This document shows, piece after piece, positions 1,686-62,100 of a DNA stretch of 62,100 nt. Source of the DNA: Conidiobolus incongruus B7586 (taxonomy: Eukaryota); the NCBI GenBank assembly GCA_000697335.1, contig JNEM01012177.1:1-62100 (forward strand). The letters run 5' to 3'. A program made the position numbers and the translations under genes. The notes below the pieces were generated by a model. That model had not been told where the DNA came from. It saw only the letters and a program-made list of their open reading frames with translations, and did no database searches. Position 1 is the first letter of the stretch, and every line of letters starts with the position of its first letter.

Positions 1686-2006
1686 TTAGAAAACAAGAGC
1701 GGCACCCTTGGTCTTCTTGTCACCACCCAATTCGAAGTGCTTGCAGCGCTTGAGAGGAAGTTGTTGCTTGTATTTGCAGACAGAGCATTCTAAACGGAGG
1801 ACGACCTTCTTAGTGGTCTTAGCCTTCTTCTTGAAGACGGGCTTAGTTTGACCACCAAAACCGGATTGTTTACGGTCGTAACGTCTCTTACCCTGAGCGA
1901 AGAGGGAAGCCTTACCGGTCTTGTATTGGGTAACCTTGTGGGGAGTGTGCTTGCGGCAAGTCTTTCCTTTACAGAAGGTGTTACGGGTCTTAGGGATGTT
2001 GACCAT
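1686..2006 (-). CDS. RPL42: 60S ribosomal protein eL42 (L42/L44/L36a)
   Basis: Intronless 106-aa [24 protein letters not shown]...[16 protein letters not shown]...CKHFELGG, typical eL42. Confidence 0.98.
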
Positions 2007-2357
2007 TGTGTCGAATCTTATTAAATCTGATTTGATCAGAAGATTTTAGAGGAATTTCGCACTAAAATATCTAATCTTCGTAAATGTAAAATTTTTGAGG
2101 GTTTGAATTGTGGGATTAATCCATTTTTCAATATTGAATTTTAAAATTGACAAAAGAATATCATGATAAGTAGTAATAAATTATAACAAAAAAAAATAAA
2201 GAAATTATCAAATAAAACTAAAAAAATTAATATTTTTAATATGTATTTTTGAATAAAAATAATCTATGTTAACCACGAAATACTGATTTGTTTTGGGAAC
2301 GGAGATCACAAGCTTCGTGATTTTAAATATTACATGAGCCAATTTCTTTATTGAAAC

Positions 2358-2795
2358 TTAAGCAATCAAGACAACAGCTCCACCTTGTTCCTTAATCTTG
2401 TTTTCAGCACGACGACTGACATAGCGAGCCTTAACAATGGCAGCAGAGTTGATGCGACCACGAGCTAAAACTTTGCCGTAACCAAGCTTGAGAGTATCAA
2501 TAACAGGGACAACTTCTTTACCGGCAGCCTTTTGCTTAATTTCTTCGGGAACTAAAGAGGCCAACTTTTCAACGTTGACAACAGGGCGCCAGTACTTGTT
2601 GCGAGTTAAGTGGAAGTGACGCATACCGACCTTACCAAAGTAACCAGGATGGTATTTGTCCATGTTGATTCTGTGGTGGTGTTGACCACCAGCTAAACCA
2701 CGACCACCTGGGTGTTTTCTGTGTTTACCAACACGACCGTGACCGGCTGATACATGTCCACGCTTCTTGCGGTTATGGTGAAAACGGGTAGGCAT
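2358..2795 (-). CDS. RPL28: 60S ribosomal protein uL15 (L28/L27a, CYH2)
   Basis: Intronless ORF with [48 protein letters not shown]. Confidence 0.98.
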
Positions 2796-4564
2796 AGCGA
2801 ACTAAATTCCGTTAATTAAAAAAGGAATCTAAATGGGAGAGAGTGAGATTTTATTTGTATTAATTTTTTAATATCAAATATTAAGATTTTACCCATTTTA
2901 TGGGATTTACTCACACAATTTCCATTCAAAGTCTTCAAATTTGATACATATGAGTTAAAATCTATAAATCAATATATTTGTAAGATTTGATAAATTTATA
3001 CAAATGGGATATATTATAATCAATCCTGGATCGAAATATGTAGATATATTTAACTAGCAATCATTTGCATACTATGATTATAATGTACACATGAGTTTTG
3101 ACTTAATATTTTCATCATTATTTTTGATTTAATTTTGAGAATTTATGTTAATATAATTAATATTCATTAAAAATTTTAAAGTGTGATCGATATTAATATT
3201 TTAATATTTTAAATATTTTTGATGTTTTATATTATAGCTAATTGATAATATGTTTTATATTTTCGAAATGAGGTAATCGACTCTTTGAAAAAATCAATAT
3301 AATTCAATAATAATAAACTATTATTTTTTTCTGTAATTAATTTTAAAACAATTATGATTCATTTGTCGAAGAATATTTGAAGTTAGAGTTAGAATTCACA
3401 TTAATTCACCCAATTCATCAAATTTGAGAATTTTGAAAAAACATTTTGAATAAAATTTGTGGATTTATTTAAATGATATCTTTATTATATGATTCATTAA
3501 TTAATATTGAAAAAGAGTCGTATTATCAAAAACCCTTGATTTGATATATAATATTTTAATAATAACTGCAAAAATAAATTGAAAACAACAGAATCTTGAC
3601 AATTGAATACAATCTCTAATTAAATTTATAACAATAATTGTATGAAAATATTATATTTAATAAATACTATTTTGTAATATGTATATTTAAATATGAATTT
3701 TAATAATTCAAGTCAGACCAATCATGTTAAAAATAATCATATATTTAAATAATAATTTAATTAAATTATTATCATTAAGATACTAAATTACAAAATTTCA
3801 ATTTCATTTGTGTAAATGTACTTTACCAAGCTCTTTGAAGGTATTTAATGCTTAATATTCAACTAATTTTTGCTTGAAGGTAGAAAAATGTAAAATATTA
3901 GTATTAATTAAATAATCAATAACAATATAAGATATATATTTTATAATGTTTATAGCACAAATAAAACTTCGAAAATATAAATTATGATAATAATTAATTG
4001 ACGCTCAAAAAAAATAATGTAAATTGAAAATAAAAGAATAAAATAATACTATACATTTCATTGATAAACTTAATTATTGATTAAAGCTTTGTATTTTAAC
4101 TGATAGTCTCTGTTTCTAATTTTATCCAATTAAATGCTTTTAAGTTATATTTATGTTCATTTTAAGTACTAAATTAGTATATTACCAAACTTTTTTATTC
4201 AAGTCCAATATAATACTCTATGTTTTCATAATTATATTCACCAACTTTTCTTAACTAAACTCAATCGATTTTCAAATTATACTCAAATAATCATGTAAAT
4301 GAATTTTTAGTTTAATCTTTTCAAGTCTTGATTAATAAATAAAAATTTGATGATATAATTCCAAACCAAGTATCCCACTTGATTTAATATTTGTCAAATT
4401 AAGATTGGATAATATTTAATCAAATAACATAATAACTGTCACACCTGAAATTCATAATTTCACTTTGATTGATCAATAAAATCATTATTAACAAACAGAA
4501 GTCAAAACATATTGATTATTAAAAACTCATTTTTAGTCTAAAAATCAACTAATAATTATCAGAC

Positions 4565-7300: not shown

Positions 7301-7372
7301 GGGCTCGACTGGGAATCGAACCCAGGACCTCTCCCACCCTAAGGGAGAATTATACCACTAAACCATCGAGCC
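7301..7372 (-). tRNA. tRNA-Pro(AGG)
   Basis: GGCTCGA acceptor stem, anticodon arm CTCCC-TTAGGGT-GGGAG, T arm GGTTCGATTCC; 72 nt. Confidence 0.95.
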
Positions 7373-30167: not shown

Positions 30168-30479
30168 TTTATACCACTTTTTAATGATAATATAATATTT
30201 TTATATAACTGATTTTATTATATGGTTTAATCTTTCTATTATTATAAAATCGATATACTTCAATATACTTTTGTAACAATGAATACGAATTAATAATTGG
30301 TTATTAATACTCTGCATTTATCAGGTCCAAAAGTAATGTATTCAAATGTGATAAATTTGGTTTTTATTAATAACAATACAGTTTGTATATTTCATTTTTA
30401 TTTAATATTATTCTGAATTTTAAGTAATGAGGCTTTTTTGATATCAAATTTATATTAAAAATTTTAATATATAATTTAA

Positions 30480-31610
30480 AATAATCAATATATACTGTAA
30501 TATTATATCTTTTTTTTATTATTAATAACTTTTTGCTATACTTTTAACAAAGATCTAACACTTAAAAAATAATTCTTTTTATTAAAGACTAAAATTTGAT
30601 ATTTTATAAACCAATTAATTTTATTTGTAGAATTTTTACTTGTAAGTGTATTTTTAATTGCTTAAAGTAATTATAATTAAATAAGTTATAATCTAGTAAA
30701 TATATTAGATATAAAAGCTTTTCTAAATTATTTTTAATTAGAAAATTTTTCACAGCTTTAAATTTATGTATTTTATAATTATTATATAAAATAATAAGTA
30801 TCTTTAAATTATATTAAAAACCTTAATTAAATATAATTTTATTTAAAAAAACAATATAAAATTTATTATTAATTGATTTTCCTTTAAAAATTAAATAAAA
30901 ATAGTATATATTATTATAATTTATTATAATAATTAATATTTACTTATAAAAAAATATTGATTTATTAAAATCTATAAAAGATTATTTTAACTTAACATTT
31001 TAGTTTGTGCTTAAACAAAAGATTTTAGAAATGGATTGATAATTCATTAGTTATAATAATTTGCTGTAAAACATTAGTTTTTAGTTATATTTTAGTAAGT
31101 TTTATTTAACTATAACTATTTTTTTTAAGTTAGTTAAGTTATAAGGTATTTATTATATATTTTTATTAATTAAACTAAGTTTACATTTTAATATATATAA
31201 TATACTTTTATAAATAGTATTAAAATGTTTTAATAACTTTAATAAAAATTAAAAGATGTTTTATATATATATTTTTTACTTTATTAATAATTAAAATATA
31301 ACAATTAAAATTTTGTAGATTTTAGAAAGCTTTAAATAATTTCCCTTTTGACTTATTAAATAGTTTACTAAATAATAAAAGATAAATTTAAATAAAACAT
31401 TATTTTTATAAGTTGTTAGTAAATTTTAAATGATTTTAAAAGGTTTGTGGTTAAGTATTAATAATAATAAAATAAAAAACTTTTGATGATTACTATTTTG
31501 GTTTAAATATGATTAAATAATAAATTTTTAAAGATAAATTTTTGAATGGAAAAACATTATATAATTATAGTTTAAAATTATATATTCTCTTATTTGTTTT
31601 GTATATAATT
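30480..31610 (-). mobile_element. Hypermutated mariner (DD34D) transposon relic, copy A
   Basis: Homologous to copy B; minus-strand remnants of mariner motifs: *IPYNLT (WVPHEL-like), IIITNE, LYNNYKIH (HDN), LLYLIYLLDYNLFNY (LPHPxYSPDxxPxDY), SVRSLLKV*QKVINN; candidate ATG at 31557; element ends approximate. Confidence 0.8.
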
Positions 31611-31900
31611 TTTCTTGGTATTAATAATATGAAAAATCATGAATTAGAAAATTTCTCATTTTTTTGATTCTGAGGTAATACTATTTAATAATATCAGAAT
31701 TGAATAGATTTTTAAACATTCCAGATCAATTAACATATGAATTGATTTAATTTGATATACATTATTTCTATTTTTTGAGGCATTCAAAATTTGACCAAAT
31801 TAATGTAATATGTCCAGAAAGGATATATCACTATTTTTATGAAATAGCATAATATGCGTAAATTTGGCAGATGCTATAAAGTTAATTATTCAATTTCTAT

Positions 31901-33244: not shown

Positions 33245-34254
33245 ATTATAAAAATATCAATTCAAATAATCAGCACCCTTGATGATTACTTGAAAAGAAT
33301 TGTTTTCCCTCTATTCCCTTCCAGCATACCCTTTTATATGGAGTGGTAGCACAAAACTCCAGTGTTCAACCTTGACAAGAGCTAGATATTAATCAATTGG
33401 TCAAATAGTGGATGGCAAAAAAGGAAATTAATTCATCTCAAAATCCAAAAATTTGATAATAAAAGTTGAATTATTTCGGATACTTTGTCATGTCATCAAT
33501 TTACTCTAACTCAAGTTACACAATTGAACTAAACATACTTTCCCGAATGGATCTTTATCTTCTCTTGTTTTTAAACCCCCCAACCAATGGACTTGGGCAA
33601 TATTTCAAAGAATAATCATATTGAGGTTTTATCCTAAATAAGTCATTTCAAATATACATATTAATTTATTTAGAAATAATCAGGATGACATGCTATGAAA
33701 TTTGTATACCTCACACCGATCAGACACCACTAAGCACACTGAAATATATAATATTAAACTTTATAATAATCAAATTCTCATCAAATTCTATCCATTAAAG
33801 CCTTCAACTCTTCTAGACTTAAAAACAATGTTAAAATAAAACTCACTTTGATAATTTTTATCATTTAATCGTGAAAATGTAAAAATGATAGAGAAAATGA
33901 ATATATTATTTGAAATATTAAGTCGCTAAGTTTAAATATTTTTTGAATATTATTGGTATATAAAAATTAATTAATATCAATAAAAATTATACCATCAACC
34001 AGATATAATTTCGATTAAATTTAAAATTTTGATAGATAAATTTGGAATTAGAAAATGTGTGAAAGATAAAACGTGGTTGAGAAGTATGTGTTACATTGAG
34101 CTCAATTGTTGACGAAAGCTTGCTCATGTATTAGTGGTATATAAAAACAAGATGATGTTGAATTGAGATGAGGTTTAAATTTATATACTCATAAAACCAT
34201 ATCAATCAAATATTTTAATTTTTCAATTATTATTATTCCCAAAAAGACTTACAA

Positions 34255-34326
34255 AGGTCTCACTGAGAATCGAACTCAGATTACAGGAATCAGAATCCTG
34301 GGTGCTGACCATTACACCATGAGACC
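34255..34326 (-). tRNA. tRNA-Gln(CTG)
   Basis: GGTCTCA acceptor stem, anticodon arm CAGGA-TTCTGAT-TCCTG, T arm AGTTCGATTCT; 72 nt. Confidence 0.95.
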
Positions 34327-35252
34327 TCAACAGTTGCTTAATTTAAAAGTATTAAATCCAGATTTGATTAATCAATGTTTCAAATATTTTGAGTATTTTT
34401 TACTAAAAAATTTTTATGATTAATTATTATAAATTTTCTTAATATTCACATTAACAGACATGGAATTTCCTCAATTTTCGTATTAATCGAGATATTTTTA
34501 TATTTCAGTTTCTTTCCTTTCTCCAGATATTTTGAATTGTTATAATTACCCAACTGAATCTTTTTTGTATAATACCTCCACACATTTTGCCGATTTATCA
34601 AATTTAAAATAGAAGATCAATTTAAATTACTGACTATATAGCTTGATATTAAATTCTAAGTCAACTTATATATATATATATATATATCGATACTGGATAT
34701 TGGAAATACAACAGATAATTCATGTAACACGATTGAAATATATATTTACCTGTTATAATAAATTTATAAAAACTTCAAGAATTTTAGTATGACCTATATT
34801 GCAATCAAACATATTAGCAAATTTAATTTAGGATATTTGGATGTAAATAATTATATATAGAATAATGGATATATTAACTTCTCGAATGTGAAATTTAAAC
34901 ACATTGATTGATAAAGACAACTTTGAAATGAATGTTAACTAAAATATAATTAGTTGAAATGTTGATTTTTCAAAAGTATCATATATATATTATCAACAAT
35001 TTGATTTAGATGATTAGTACCAAAAATATGTTTATAGTTATATTATCCAGTCAATACTTAATTACTGAAACAATATCTACTATAGCTAAAATAATGTCAA
35101 TTTTTATAAGTATGTATGTTCCTGCTATCATTTTCAAAATGCTAGGTAAATAATGAATAATATGAACAAAAATTCAAAGAATTTGATGAATCATGGAAAT
35201 GCTAAATTGGGTATATCAAAATAAAAATACAGTCTTAAAAATAGTTACTTTA

Positions 35253-40643: not shown

Positions 40644-41426
40644 ATGTTTGAAGCTAAGTTACGTCAAGGTGTTCTCTTAAAGAAAGTTATTGAAGCTGTT
40701 AAAGAACTTGTAAACGAATGTAATGTTGATTGTAGTGATGCTGGACTTCAGCTCCAAGCTATGGACTCTAGTCACGTCGCTTTAGTCGCTCTTCTTTTGA
40801 AGGCTGAAGGTTTCGAACCCTACCGCTGTGATCGCAACATCACCCTTGGTATCAGTATCACTTCTTTTAACAAGCTCCTCAAGTGTGCCAACAATGATGA
40901 TGTCATCACTCTTAAATCTGACGATAGCTGCCAACTCCTTAATATGACTTTCGAAAGTCCCAAAGAAGATCGTATCAGTGAATACGACCTCAAGTTAATG
41001 GATATCGATATTGAACATTTGGGTCTTCCCGATACTAAGTACGACTGTAACGTTTCTATGTCTTCTAGCGAATTCCAGAGAATCTGCCGTGATTTAGGTA
41101 TGTTAAGTGAAAACATCTGCATTGAAATCATTAAGAGCCAAATCAAGTTCTCCGCCAAGGGTGAATTTGGTAACGGCAGTGTTACCTTAAAGCAAGGATC
41201 TGCTTCCGTCGATGATGATTCCGTCACTACCACCACCATTGAATGTGATAAACCTGTCACCCTCACCTTCTCCGTCAAGTATTTGTCTCATTTTGCCAAG
41301 GCCGCTTCTATTTCCCCCGTTGTCAGCTTAAGTTTAACACCTGATGTCCCAATCTTGATCGAATACAAGATTTCCGATATTGGTCACCTCCAATACTACC
41401 TTGCTCCTAAGATCGATGATGAATAA
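40644..41426 (+). CDS. POL30: Proliferating cell nuclear antigen
   Basis: MFEAKL...LQAMDSSHVALV...YYLAPKIDDE; intronless 260 aa. Confidence 0.99.
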   Translation: MFEAKLRQGVLLKKVIEAVKELVNECNVDCSDAGLQLQAMDSSHVALVALLLKAEGFEPYRCDRNITLGISITSFNKLLKCANNDDVITLKSDDSCQLLNMTFESPKEDRISEYDLKLMDIDIEHLGLPDTKYDCNVSMSSSEFQRICRDLGMLSENICIEIIKSQIKFSAKGEFGNGSVTLKQGSASVDDDSVTTTTIECDKPVTLTFSVKYLSHFAKAASISPVVSLSLTPDVPILIEYKISDIGHLQYYLAPKIDDE

Positions 41427-58255: not shown

Positions 58256-60475
58256 ATGTATCGTAACTTAATCACTGCTCTTCGACCTCAATCTCGCTTA
58301 TTAACACAGAGTCGAATCCCTTTGAACCAACTCTCCAGAACGAGTTCCTTGGGACTTCGATTCAACTCATCTAATAATACTCCTCAAGATAGGAAACCCC
58401 AAGATGACAAATCATTCCCTAGAGGATTTGGAAGTTTTTTTGGTGATAAAGATTCTCAAAAATCAAATAGGTCCAATCAAAACCGTGAACATGAAGAAGA
58501 ACCCCAAAAGCCTGAAGAAGACCCCAATAAAGAAAGAAGAAATAAGAATGACAAAAAGAAATCTCAGGAAGAGACTGTTTTAACAATAGCTACAAGTCCT
58601 CAATCTATTCTTATGTCACTGTTTTTAACCTATTTCCTCTACAAATTAATGAACCCTACCGAAGCTGATTCTAGAGAATTGAGTTTCCAAGAATTCCGTA
58701 GTAACTATCTAGAGAAGGGTTTGGTCAAAAAGATAACTGTTTACAATAAGAAGACTGCCTATGCCACTTTACACGGTAGCTCCGACCACCATACCAGCCA
58801 GTCTGTCTACTTCAATATCGGATCAGTCAGAGCTTTTGAAGAAAACATGGAATCCATCCAACAGAATTTAGGCATTCCTACCAATGAATACATTCCCATC
58901 GTCTACAAGGAAAGAATCGGTCTCTTCAATCTTCTCTTAAACTTGGCCCCCACTCTTTTCCTTCTTGGTGGTTTAGTATATCTCTCCCGCAAAGCCTCCG
59001 CTGGCGCTGGTCGTGGAGGAATCTTTAATATCGGTAAATCCAAGGCTAAGGTATACAACCAAGAAACCAATGTCAAGATCAACTTCAAGGATGTTGCTGG
59101 TATGGAAGAAGCCAAAGAAGAAATTATGGAATTTGTCAAATTCTTAAAGAATCCTAAACAATATGAAAAATTAGGAGCCAAGATTCCTAAAGGTGCTATT
59201 TTAAGTGGTCCTCCTGGTACTGGTAAGACCCTTCTTGCCAAGGCTACTGCTGGTGAAGCTGGTGTCCCCTTTTTGAGTGTCTCAGGTTCTGAATTCGTTG
59301 AAATGTTTGTTGGCGTGGGTCCTTCCCGTGTTAGAGATCTCTTTGCTATGGCCAAGAAGCAGGCTCCTTGTATCATTTTCGTTGATGAAATTGATGCTAT
59401 TGGTAAGAGTCGTGGTCGTGCTGGTAATTTTGGTGGAAATGACGAACGTGAATCTACTCTTAATCAACTTTTGGTTGAGATGGATGGTTTCGATACCAAC
59501 GAACACGTTGTTGTCCTTGCTGGTACCAATCGTCCCGATGTTTTGGATAATGCCTTGAAACGTCCCGGTCGTTTCGATCGTCATATTCATATTGATGCCC
59601 CTGATATCAAAGGTAGAAGTGATATTTTCAAGGTCCATTTGAGACGCATTGTCACCAAGGAAGATAAGAACAAGCTAGCTGATAAGCTTGCCGCTCTCAC
59701 CCCTGGTTTTGCTGGTGCTGATATTGCTAATGTTTGTAATGAAGCTGCTCTAATTGCTGCCCGTTACCAAAATGACTCTGTTGAAGAGAAGCACTTTATC
59801 CAAGCTGTTGACAGAGTTATTGCTGGTCTTGAAAAGAAGAGCAAAATCCTTTCTCCAGAAGAAAAGAAGACTGTTGCTTATCATGAAGCTGGTCACGCTG
59901 TCTGCGGCTGGTTCCTTCAACACGCTGATCCTCTCCTTAAGGTATCCATTATTCCTCGCGCCAAGGGAACTCTTGGATTCGCACAATTCCTTCCCAAAGA
60001 TCAATATCTCTTCACTGTTGAACAGCTTTTTGACCGTATGTGTATGACACTAGGTGGTCGTGTTTCTGAACAGATCTTCTTTGGCACTATCACCACTGGT
60101 GCTCATGATGATCTTCAAAAAGTAACCAAATTGGCCTATGCTCAAGTTGCCCAATATGGTATGAACAAGCAAGTTGGTCAAGTCAACTACCAACAAGAAA
60201 ACGAATTCCAGAAGCCCTTCTCAGAAGACACCTCCCGCCTCATCGATATTGAAGTTCGAGAATTAATTGACAGAGCTTATCAGAGAACAACCGAACTCCT
60301 CACGCAACACAAAGATAATATTGAAAAGGTTGCTAAGCTCTTACTCGAAAAGGAAGTCCTTAACCGTGAAGATATGATCAACCTCTTAGGTAAAAGACCC
60401 TTCCCCGAAAAGGTTCAATACGAAGAATATGTTTTGGGTAGATCTGAAGAAACCGAAAAACCCAAAGAAAATTAA
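58256..60475 (+). CDS. AFG3: Mitochondrial m-AAA protease subunit (Afg3/Yta12 family)
   Basis: Arg/Ser-rich presequence, two TMs, Walker A GPPGTGKT, Walker [19 protein letters not shown] zinc site; Afg3 versus Yta12 not resolved. Confidence 0.92.
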
Positions 60476-60899
60476 ATTTTTTGTCATTTGAAATATTATA
60501 TTCCGTAACATTCGATTATTTCATAGTTTTTTTTCTCTCATAAATAAATTCACTTAATATTAAAATTAACACATATTTATAGTATATAATTTATACTCTC
60601 ATTAAATCTGTAATTTATAACTTTTATCAAATATAAATATTTATATTTGATAAACCTATGGAATTTATTTTTTTAACCATATAAACTCTAAATTATTTTA
60701 TAATTGAAATTTTATCAATTAATTTGATATTGATAAATATATATATAATCAATTTTATTATATATTTCATTAATATTATTTTTTTTCTATTTACAAATTT
60801 AAAAATACAAAATTCAATATTTAAAGTTGAAGATATTAGTGTAGAAATTAAGTAATGGCACAATTTTAAAATTAAAATTAAACAAATAAATTAATAAAT

Positions 60900-62060
60900 A
60901 ATATACAAAAATTAATAAATAATATAAAATTTATAGCTTTTTTTATTATTAATAACTCTTTTCTATACTTTTAGTAAGTTTCTAATACTTAAAAAACAGT
61001 TCTTTTTATTAAAGACTAAAATTTGATGTTTTACAAACTAATTTAATTTGTTTACAGGAATTTTTTTCCTACAAGCTATTTTTTTAATTGATTAAAACAA
61101 TTATAATCACATAGATTATAATTAAGTAAATATACTAGATATAGTAACTCTCTCTAGTTTTTTTTATATAAAAAATCTTTTATAGCTTTAATTTTATGTA
61201 TTTTACAATTATCATGTAAAATAATAAGTATTTTTATTTATATTAAGAACACTATTTAAAAATTATTTTATTTAAAAAAATAATATATAATTTATTATTA
61301 ATTAATTTTCCTTAAGATATTAAATAAGAAAATTATATCCTATTATAATATATTATAACAATTAACATTTATTTATATTTAAAGTACTTATTCATTAGAA
61401 TTTATAAAGAAGACTAATTTAGTTTAATATAATATCTTATTTTATTTTTAAATAAAAGATTATATAAAAAATTTAAAATTTATTAATTATAAGTATTAAT
61501 TATAAAAACTTTTGTTTTTGGTTATATTTTAATAAGTTTAGTTTAATTATAGCTACTTTAGTTTTTTTAAACTTTTATTAAATTATAAAATATTTATTTT
61601 ATATTTTTATTAATTAATTTAAGTTTAAATTTAAGTATATATAATATGCTTATATAATTAATATTAAATTGCTTTAATAATTCTTTAACAAAAATAAATG
61701 ATATTTCTTAATATATTTTTTTATTTTGTTTATAAGTAAAAAAATAAGAGTAGAAATTAACTTTTTAAATTTTAGCAAATTTTAAATAATATTACTTTTA
61801 ATATTAAAATCATAAATTTAATGATATATAGTAGTTTTAACTAAAATATTATCTTTATAAGCTATTTATAAGTTTTAAATAATTTTAAAGAGTTTATAGT
61901 TAAGTTTTAAAAATACAAAAATAAAAGTCTTTTAGTATTCACTATCTAGTTTAAGTATAATTAAATTTAAATATAAATTTTAAAATTAAAATATTTGAAT
62001 AAAAAAAATAATTAAAATTAAATATATATAAAATTTGAAAATATTTATTTTGTTATATAT
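60900..62060 (-). mobile_element. Hypermutated mariner (DD34D) transposon relic, copy B
   Basis: Minus strand reads LHDNCKIH...N*RELLYLVYLLNYNLCDY with exactly 34 residues between the Asp codons at 61211-61213 and 61106-61108; also ILIINKF*IFY (first-Asp motif) and *IFYNLI (WVPHEL-like); element ends approximate. Confidence 0.85.
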
Positions 62061-62100
62061 TTTATATATAAAAAATCATTCAAAACATATAGTATATTTG

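What the first reader, a model, noticed from the sequence alone, without database searches (positions are those of the whole stretch)
60900..62060. Mariner DD34D transposase damaged by CpA->TpA hypermutation: RIP-like genome defence in an apparently early-diverging fungus
Seen: this ORF-less AT tract still encodes, on the minus strand, HDN-x33-D (DD34D spacing). The segment TAG AGA GAG TTA CTA TAT CTA GTA TAT TTA CTT AAT TAT AAT CTA TGT GAT TAT becomes WRELPHPAYSPDYNPCDY, close to the mariner LPHPPYSPDLAPxDY motif, if TGG>TAG, CCA>CTA, CAT>TAT, GCA>GTA, TCA>TTA, CCT>CTT and T-GAT>T-AAT are reverted. All of these but CCT>CTT are CpA->TpA or TpG->TpA, on both strands. Neighbouring genes and ordinary intergenic DNA remain rich in TCA/TGA. 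Established: CpA-preferring RIP depends on the RID cytosine-methyltransferase homolog and is characteristic of Pezizomycotina; RIP-like mutation in some basidiomycetes prefers TpCpG. Inference: a repeat-targeted C-to-T mutator with RIP-like specificity acts in this non-Dikarya-looking genome, which could be an undescribed defence system.
Basis: partly seen in the sequence, partly recalled or inferred. Interest (0 to 1): 0.9.

Follow-up and report, generated by a model that had tools for sequence, protein, structure and literature searches.

The report
RIP-like mutation scars in Conidiobolus transposons
A dead, many-copy mariner transposon in a Conidiobolus-type fungus has lost cytosines before A and G far more than the unique DNA around it, likely because a methylation-linked mutator is aimed at repeats, in a fungal lineage where such a defence is still disputed.

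Summary
60836-62100 is a decayed DD34D mariner, with a second copy at 30408-31678 (76% identical) and very many more in the genome (11,697 contigs laid in one run). PCNA places the host beside Conidiobolus coronatus (Entomophthorales), outside Pezizomycotina. In both copies CpA is depleted below AT-rich unique DNA (odds 0.32 and 0.45), CpG is absent and CpT is at background level; conserved codons lost C at 40 of 46 purine-followed sites against 19 of 44 pyrimidine-followed ones. The bias is moderate (simulated CpA rate 1.5-2 times CpT), not CpA-only, sits on substantial ordinary drift, and rests on one family. No genome was available, so no enzyme was tested. Most likely: repeat-targeted DNMT1/DIM-2-type methylation with deamination; true pairing-based RIP is not excluded. 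A RIP-index signal in Entomophthorales is already published (PMC11105155), while a kingdom-wide screen scored C. coronatus as no RIP (PMC12543289). So this is site-level support in an open dispute, not a new system.

The parts
60836..62100 (-). Mariner relic, copy A (11% GC); right end probably cut by the window edge
   Evidence: (depth rises from 9-220 to 2e4-1e5 at 60824; loose ends at 60833/60834)
60834..60835 (.). TA at the left junction, likely the target-site duplication
   Evidence: TSD role inferred
61046..61237 (-). Catalytic C-terminal part of the broken transposase (HDN 61216-61208; YSPD-like segment 61156-61103; last D 61108-61106)
   Evidence: (E 2e-15)
61246..61701 (-). Middle part of the broken transposase in another frame (WVPH-type motif region, profile positions 93-245)
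   Evidence: (E 2.5e-8)
30408..31678 (-). Mariner relic, copy B, full length (1271 bp), TA on both sides, degenerate terminal inverted repeats; same CpA/CpG depletion
   Evidence: 75.9% identity over 1234 columns
60476..60833 (.). Unique flank used as control: 13% GC yet CpA 25, CpT 15, CpG 4
58259..60475 (+). Neighbouring AFG3-type m-AAA protease gene (context, intact)
40644..41426 (+). PCNA gene used to place the host

Best explanation
The locus is one of many dead copies of a DD34D mariner in a Conidiobolus-type fungus whose copies have lost C before A and G beyond the level of unique DNA, likely because a DNMT1/DIM-2-type cytosine methyltransferase marks repeats and the marked cytosines are converted to T. 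Shown: mariner identity, high copy number, host placement, excess loss of CpA and CpG confined to the two copies in this window. Inferred: the element entered at about 33-40% GC, spread, and its copies then took (a) ordinary AT-biased drift at all cytosines and (b) a repeat-restricted extra C-to-T load at CpA and CpG, strongest after a pyrimidine (TCA, TCG, CCA). Untested: the enzyme, 5mC itself, and whether it acts in mitosis (as Zymoseptoria Dim2 does) or before meiosis.
For: Undershoot: C/(C+T) before A is 0.081 (A) and 0.109 (B) against 0.213 in 77 AT-rich unique tiles (p 9e-16, 2e-9) and 0.154 in the 13 most AT-rich tiles (p 2e-5, 0.015); before T it is 0.147 and 0.141 against 0.153 (p 0.77, 0.44); before G 0 of 44 and 0 of 58 against 0.088. 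Decay towards the genome's equilibrium should not overshoot in one context only (inference). CA/CT is 0.48 and 0.63; the lowest of 573 outside 1.2-kb windows is 0.77, and none has a positive composite RIP index. Conserved codons: 46 of 154 are explained by C>T/G>A alone (shuffled 19 +/- 4, max 32); C lost at 40 of 46 purine-followed against 19 of 44 pyrimidine-followed sites; all 26 stops in the aligned frames are TAA or TAG. Genome-wide site table: median T share 0.59 at 9 CpA sites, 0.11 at 8 CpC, 0.12 at 11 CpT (p 0.009). Context-free or CpG-only decay reached copy A's ratio (0.37 in the ORF part) in 0 of 60 runs under each of four settings. 228 of 290 variable places are transitions. Precedent: Dim2 drives CpA C-to-T in repeats during mitosis in Z. 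tritici (PMC8016269, passages); all entomophthoralean genomes in PMC11105155 encode PF00145 domains (passages); meiosis is not demonstrated in this group (PMC3734969, passages).
Against: A versus B in well-aligned columns shows 49 transitions, 29 A/T and 10 other transversions, so much change is ordinary ageing. Of 22 top-supported sites where copy A has T and most copies C, only 6 are followed by A (rows chosen for high support, which favours cold sites). The site table is biased towards copy A's letters, CpA sites are bimodal (four at 11-21%), the three TCA sites are among the coldest despite the compositional TCA deficit, and 3 of 11 CpT sites are hot. Reviews describe 5mC as scarce in Zoopagomycota/early-diverging fungi. 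C. coronatus was scored 'no_rip' (PMC12543289 supplement).
Confidence: 0.5

Rival explanations
1. True RIP: duplicated DNA is recognised by pairing around zygospore formation and mutated in bursts, by a RID-like or DIM-2-dependent route, in a non-Dikarya fungus.
For: Signature confined to the repeat and absent from 13-23% GC flanks; copy A passes the stringent RIP indices (1.18, 0.61; thresholds >1.15, <=0.75 from PMC7882544); both strands hit; RIP-index signal of 24.2% in Zoophthora radicans (PMC11105155); a RID-independent DIM-2 route exists in Neurospora (bioRxiv 2021.04.05.438447).
Against: Copy B just misses the product threshold (1.149); large RIP regions in an ascomycete table score 1.6 and 0.2-0.3; a five-fold CpA preference would give CA/CT near 0.05, not 0.37-0.60; RID/Masc1 homologues were reported only from Dikarya plus a likely bacterial transfer in Batrachochytrium (PMC5751038); meiosis unproven in the group.
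Confidence: 0.2
2. No targeted process: an old GC-richer element drifting in an AT-biased genome, with CpG decay, a CA-poor ancestor and mutations inherited from a few founder copies.
For: Many A/T transversions between the copies; CpT retention equals background; copy B's ratio (0.60) is reached by 2-5% of context-free or CpG-only simulations; identical 5-mer contexts differ widely (61110 at 13%, 61141 at 91%), as shared ancestry or mapping bias would give; the simulated ancestor is a back-translation of 30-42% identical homologues, not the real one.
Against: CpA falls below the unique-DNA level; codon-fixed CpA sites (Trp, His, Cys, Gln, Met) lost 13 of 17 against 11 of 30 at CpC/CpT (p 0.015), which does not depend on assumed starting composition; CpG decay alone creates CpA/TpG.
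Confidence: 0.2
3. A cytidine deaminase preferring TpC edits transposon DNA.
For: TC/AC is 0.65 and 0.53 against about 1.2 in all simulations and in unique DNA; TCA is the most depleted trinucleotide (odds 0.23).
Against: Both strands are hit and a DNA transposon has no long single-stranded phase (established knowledge); TCC is not depleted (odds 0.83); TCA sites are cold in the site table; no such enzyme was sought.
Confidence: 0.07
4. The element was mutated by RIP in an ascomycete and is present by contamination or transfer.
For: CpA signature is classically ascomycete (PMC4352252).
Against: Copy B lies between host genes inside the window; contigs show many different flanks at the same left edge; copies carry separate changes (27 C/G kept only in A, 22 only in B); named nearest transposases are from arthropods.
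Confidence: 0.03

Closest known systems
Dim2-dependent mitotic CpA mutator of Zymoseptoria tritici (PMC8016269, passages)
   Same: C-to-T at CpA in repeats, no meiosis needed, CA falls in transposons
   Different: There CpG is methylated but not mutated; here CpG is absent. Ascomycete, with RID also present; enzyme untested here.
RID-dependent RIP of Neurospora crassa and other Pezizomycotina (PMC12543289 sections 8-9; PMC4352252 passages)
   Same: Repeat-confined C-to-T on both strands, CpA depleted, TAA/TAG stops, positive composite index
   Different: Weaker indices, only about 1.5-2-fold CpA excess, CpG also lost, non-Dikarya host, no RID known, timing unknown
RIP-index signal in Entomophthorales (PMC11105155, passages)
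   Same: Same order; same composite index is positive
   Different: [quoted passage not shown]
TpCpG hypermutation of Pucciniomycotina (PMC3318451) and CpG+CpA signature of Tuber melanosporum (PMC4352252)
   Same: CpG loss (TCG 0 of 52 against 11%), 5' T effect; mixed CpG/CpA pattern
   Different: Pucciniomycotina lack the CpA component; Tuber has RID and Dim2
Mariner (DD34D) transposons, CDF/YNCF-type subgroup of hits P0121-P0144
   Same: HDN...D spacing 34, YSPD-type motif, about 1.27 kb, TA ends
   Different: Non-functional; 30-42% identity to nearest intact proteins over the matched stretch

Membership tests
Mariner DD34D | 34 residues between second and third catalytic Asp | tested here: met
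Mariner DD34D | Similarity to mariner transposases (WVPHEL and YSPDL-type motifs; names recalled) | tested here: met
   raw frames alone hit no Pfam family
Mariner DD34D | First catalytic Asp recognisable | tested here: inconclusive
   misaligned or deleted in both copies
Mariner DD34D | About 1.3 kb, TIRs, TA duplication | tested here: met
   copy B 1271 bp with TA both sides; TIR match is weak
RIP | C:G to T:A transitions dominate | tested here: met
   228 of 290 places; only 49 of 88 in the A-B pair
RIP | Confined to repeated DNA | tested here: met
   one window, one family
RIP | Strong CpA preference | tested here: inconclusive
   present but moderate and shared with CpG
RIP | Stringent indices (product >1.15, substrate <=0.75) | tested here: inconclusive
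   A 1.18/0.61 passes, B 1.149/0.71 misses narrowly
RIP | RID/Masc1 (or DIM-2 route) present | not testable with these tools
   no genome held
RIP | Premeiotic, pairing-dependent, sequence-independent | not testable with these tools
   needs crosses
RIP (canonical distribution) | Host in Pezizomycotina | tested here: not met
   sister to C. coronatus 100/100, Entomophthorales 97/93; single gene
Dim2-type methylation mutator | 5mC on repeats and a DIM-2/DNMT1-class gene | not testable with these tools
   literature only

The most novel reading that the evidence does not exclude
Conidiobolus runs a homology-sensing, RIP-equivalent mutator without RID, so repeat-induced mutation either predates Dikarya or arose twice; screens based on AT-rich k-mer enrichment miss it because this genome's unique non-coding DNA is already 17% GC.
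Probability: 0.2. Interest if true: 0.85.

Novelty: new variant of a known kind. Interest (0 to 1): 0.55.

Why it matters
Whether RIP-like defence exists outside Dikarya is open: one paper reports index signals in Entomophthorales with caveats, another finds the signature only in ascomycetes. A high-copy family in a small, gene-dense Conidiobolus genome allows a per-site test that window indices cannot give, and would show whether CpA-biased repeat mutation needs RID or meiosis at all.

Tried and rejected
Whole genome not held: no methyltransferase or deaminase search, no other repeat families. Pfam on six X-read frames: 0 families. No Conidiobolus or other named fungal transposase among the 120 listed of 182 hits (word-limited, weak). 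No RNA holder listed; says nothing on expression. Runs X5 and X7 laid 1 contig each, so no second sample was obtained. Summed contig depth is not a copy number; only 'many' is claimed. The constrained-tree test did not finish. Two look-ups of earlier scan findings returned nothing. PMC6533610 (fungal methylome survey) is not held; PMC4943192 and bioRxiv 2022.11.30.518637 had no matching passages; search for TpCpA preference in RIP found 0 papers, so the 5' effect is not compared with Neurospora. No other mariner relic in the window by profile or BLAST. Rejected: CpG-only decay and context-free decay as sole causes for copy A; strict CpA-only RIP (same calls). The 9 of 9 CpG losses rest on Arg codons that could have been AGR, so they were dropped.

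Full report
Observation. A further search gave 182 relatives (120 listed); a profile of the 17 closest matches copy A in two frames (E 2e-15, 2.5e-8) and a second copy at E 2e-15. That copy B spans 30408-31678, has TA on both sides and weak terminal inverted repeats, and is 75.9% identical to A over 1234 columns.

Host. PCNA is 85% identical to Conidiobolus coronatus, next 63%. In a 28-protein tree it is sister to C. coronatus (100/100) within Entomophthorales (97/93); six Pezizomycotina form their own clade (100/100) (one gene; the constrained test did not finish). The species is not determined.

Other copies. Four runs of one sample hold the stretch. In X1, 11,697 contigs lie on 60500-62100 at 80% likeness or better, with summed depth 2e4-1e5 over much of the element against 9-220 in the flank, a sharp edge at 60833/60834 with unrelated loose ends, and 228 transitions among 290 variable places. 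Taking every C/G allele as ancestral, the median T share is 0.59 at 9 CpA sites, 0.11 at 8 CpC and 0.12 at 11 CpT (p 0.009). The table leans towards copy A's letters because less-mutated contigs are clipped in dense stretches, and CpA sites split into a cold group (11-21%, including all three TCA) and a hot group (59-91%). Among the 40 best-supported rows, 22 have T in A and C in most copies; only 6 are followed by A.

Composition. Of residual C, 31% (A) and 35% (B) precede A, against 50% in 77 unique 200-bp tiles of at most 20% GC; CpG is 0 in both against 5%. CA/CT is 0.48 and 0.63; the minimum over 573 outside windows is 0.77 and their highest composite index is -0.03. C/(C+T) before A is 0.081 and 0.109 against 0.213, whereas before T it matches background. 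The immediate flanks keep CA above CT and keep CpG. TCA is most depleted (odds 0.23), then TCG (0 of 52), CCA, CCT; ACT is enriched.

Codon test. At 154 conserved profile columns, 56 codons keep the residue, 46 differ by C>T/G>A only (shuffled mean 19, max 32) and 52 fit neither (misalignment or a different ancestor; left out of the context count). C was lost at 40 of 46 purine-followed and 19 of 44 pyrimidine-followed positions; at codon-fixed CpA 13 of 17. All 26 stops in the aligned frames are TAA or TAG.

Strength. Simulated decay of back-translated homologues to 11.7% GC gives CA/CT about 0.95 without context, 0.8-0.9 with fast CpG only, 0.5-0.6 and 0.35-0.44 with CpA 1.5 and 2 times faster, and 0.05-0.08 at five times; observed in the ORF part 0.37 and 0.60. 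No model with 3' context alone gives the TC/AC of 0.53-0.65. The copies also differ by 29 A/T and 10 other transversions against 49 transitions, so they are old and part of the C loss is plain drift; the targeted part could be more CpA/CpG-specific than the total suggests (inference).

Mechanism. The most economical reading is repeat-targeted cytosine methylation by a DNMT1/DIM-2-type enzyme followed by conversion to T, superimposed on drift (0.5). It accounts for joint CpG and CpA loss, needs neither RID nor meiosis, and has a precedent in Z. tritici Dim2 (PMC8016269, passages). True RIP (0.2), drift with founder effects (0.2), a TpC deaminase (0.07) and foreign origin (0.03) remain. The enzyme step is wholly inferred.

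Literature. PMC11105155 (passages; supplements searched, no RIP values found) reports composite-index RIP of 24.2% in Z. radicans and 2.4-5.7% in three relatives, plus methyltransferases that 'cannot be interpreted as homologs of RID'. PMC12543289 (abstract, sections 8 and 9, passages, supplement rows; three large tables unreadable, which may hold its methyltransferase calls) finds the signature only in ascomycetes and scores C. coronatus no_rip, with AT-rich 4-mers not enriched in its repeats. PMC5751038 (passages, supplement rows) finds RID/Masc1 essentially in Dikarya and notes a transposon-rich and a transposon-poor Conidiobolus. PMC3318451, PMC4352252, PMC7862722, PMC13297926, PMC11258239, PMC3734969, PMC7882544 and bioRxiv 2021.04.05.438447 were seen as passages. 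Ten searches listed no site-level analysis of repeat mutation in Conidiobolus; the library lacks most subscription papers.

Verdict. A real mariner relic with a real, moderate, repeat-confined CpA/CpG loss in a non-Dikarya fungus. It works like RIP in outcome; membership in RIP is unproven. New variant of a known kind, interest 0.55.

Noticed in passing
   Followed up: yes
both copies: Residual C is depleted after T as well (TC/AC 0.53-0.65 against about 1.2), yet TCA sites are cold in the read table; unreconciled.
   Followed up: partly
window 60836-60935, 30408-30507, 31479-31678: The CpA deficit seems to fade in the outer 100-200 bp of the elements (CA+TG at or above CT+AG); counts are small.
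   Followed up: no
proteins P0127, P0134, P0142: Named nearest transposases come from insects (Neodiprion, Cephus, Periplaneta); transfer from an arthropod host is conceivable but identity is only 30-36% and it was not tested.
   Followed up: no
PMC12543289 supplement 3: C. coronatus has 28,853 repeat hits at 80-95% identity but 791 at 95-100% and none of 1 kb or more at 95-100%; fits a mutator or collapsed assembly.
   Followed up: no
window 7301-7372 and 34254-34327: tRNA-Pro(AGG) and tRNA-Gln(CTG) genes.
   Followed up: no
window 1686-2045 and 2358-2801 (minus): Two adjacent ribosomal protein genes: an L42/L44-like ORF (label recalled) and L27A.
   Followed up: no
window 61127 and 61192: Three-allele sites with transversion variants at 12-42% suggest subfamilies of the element.
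   Followed up: no
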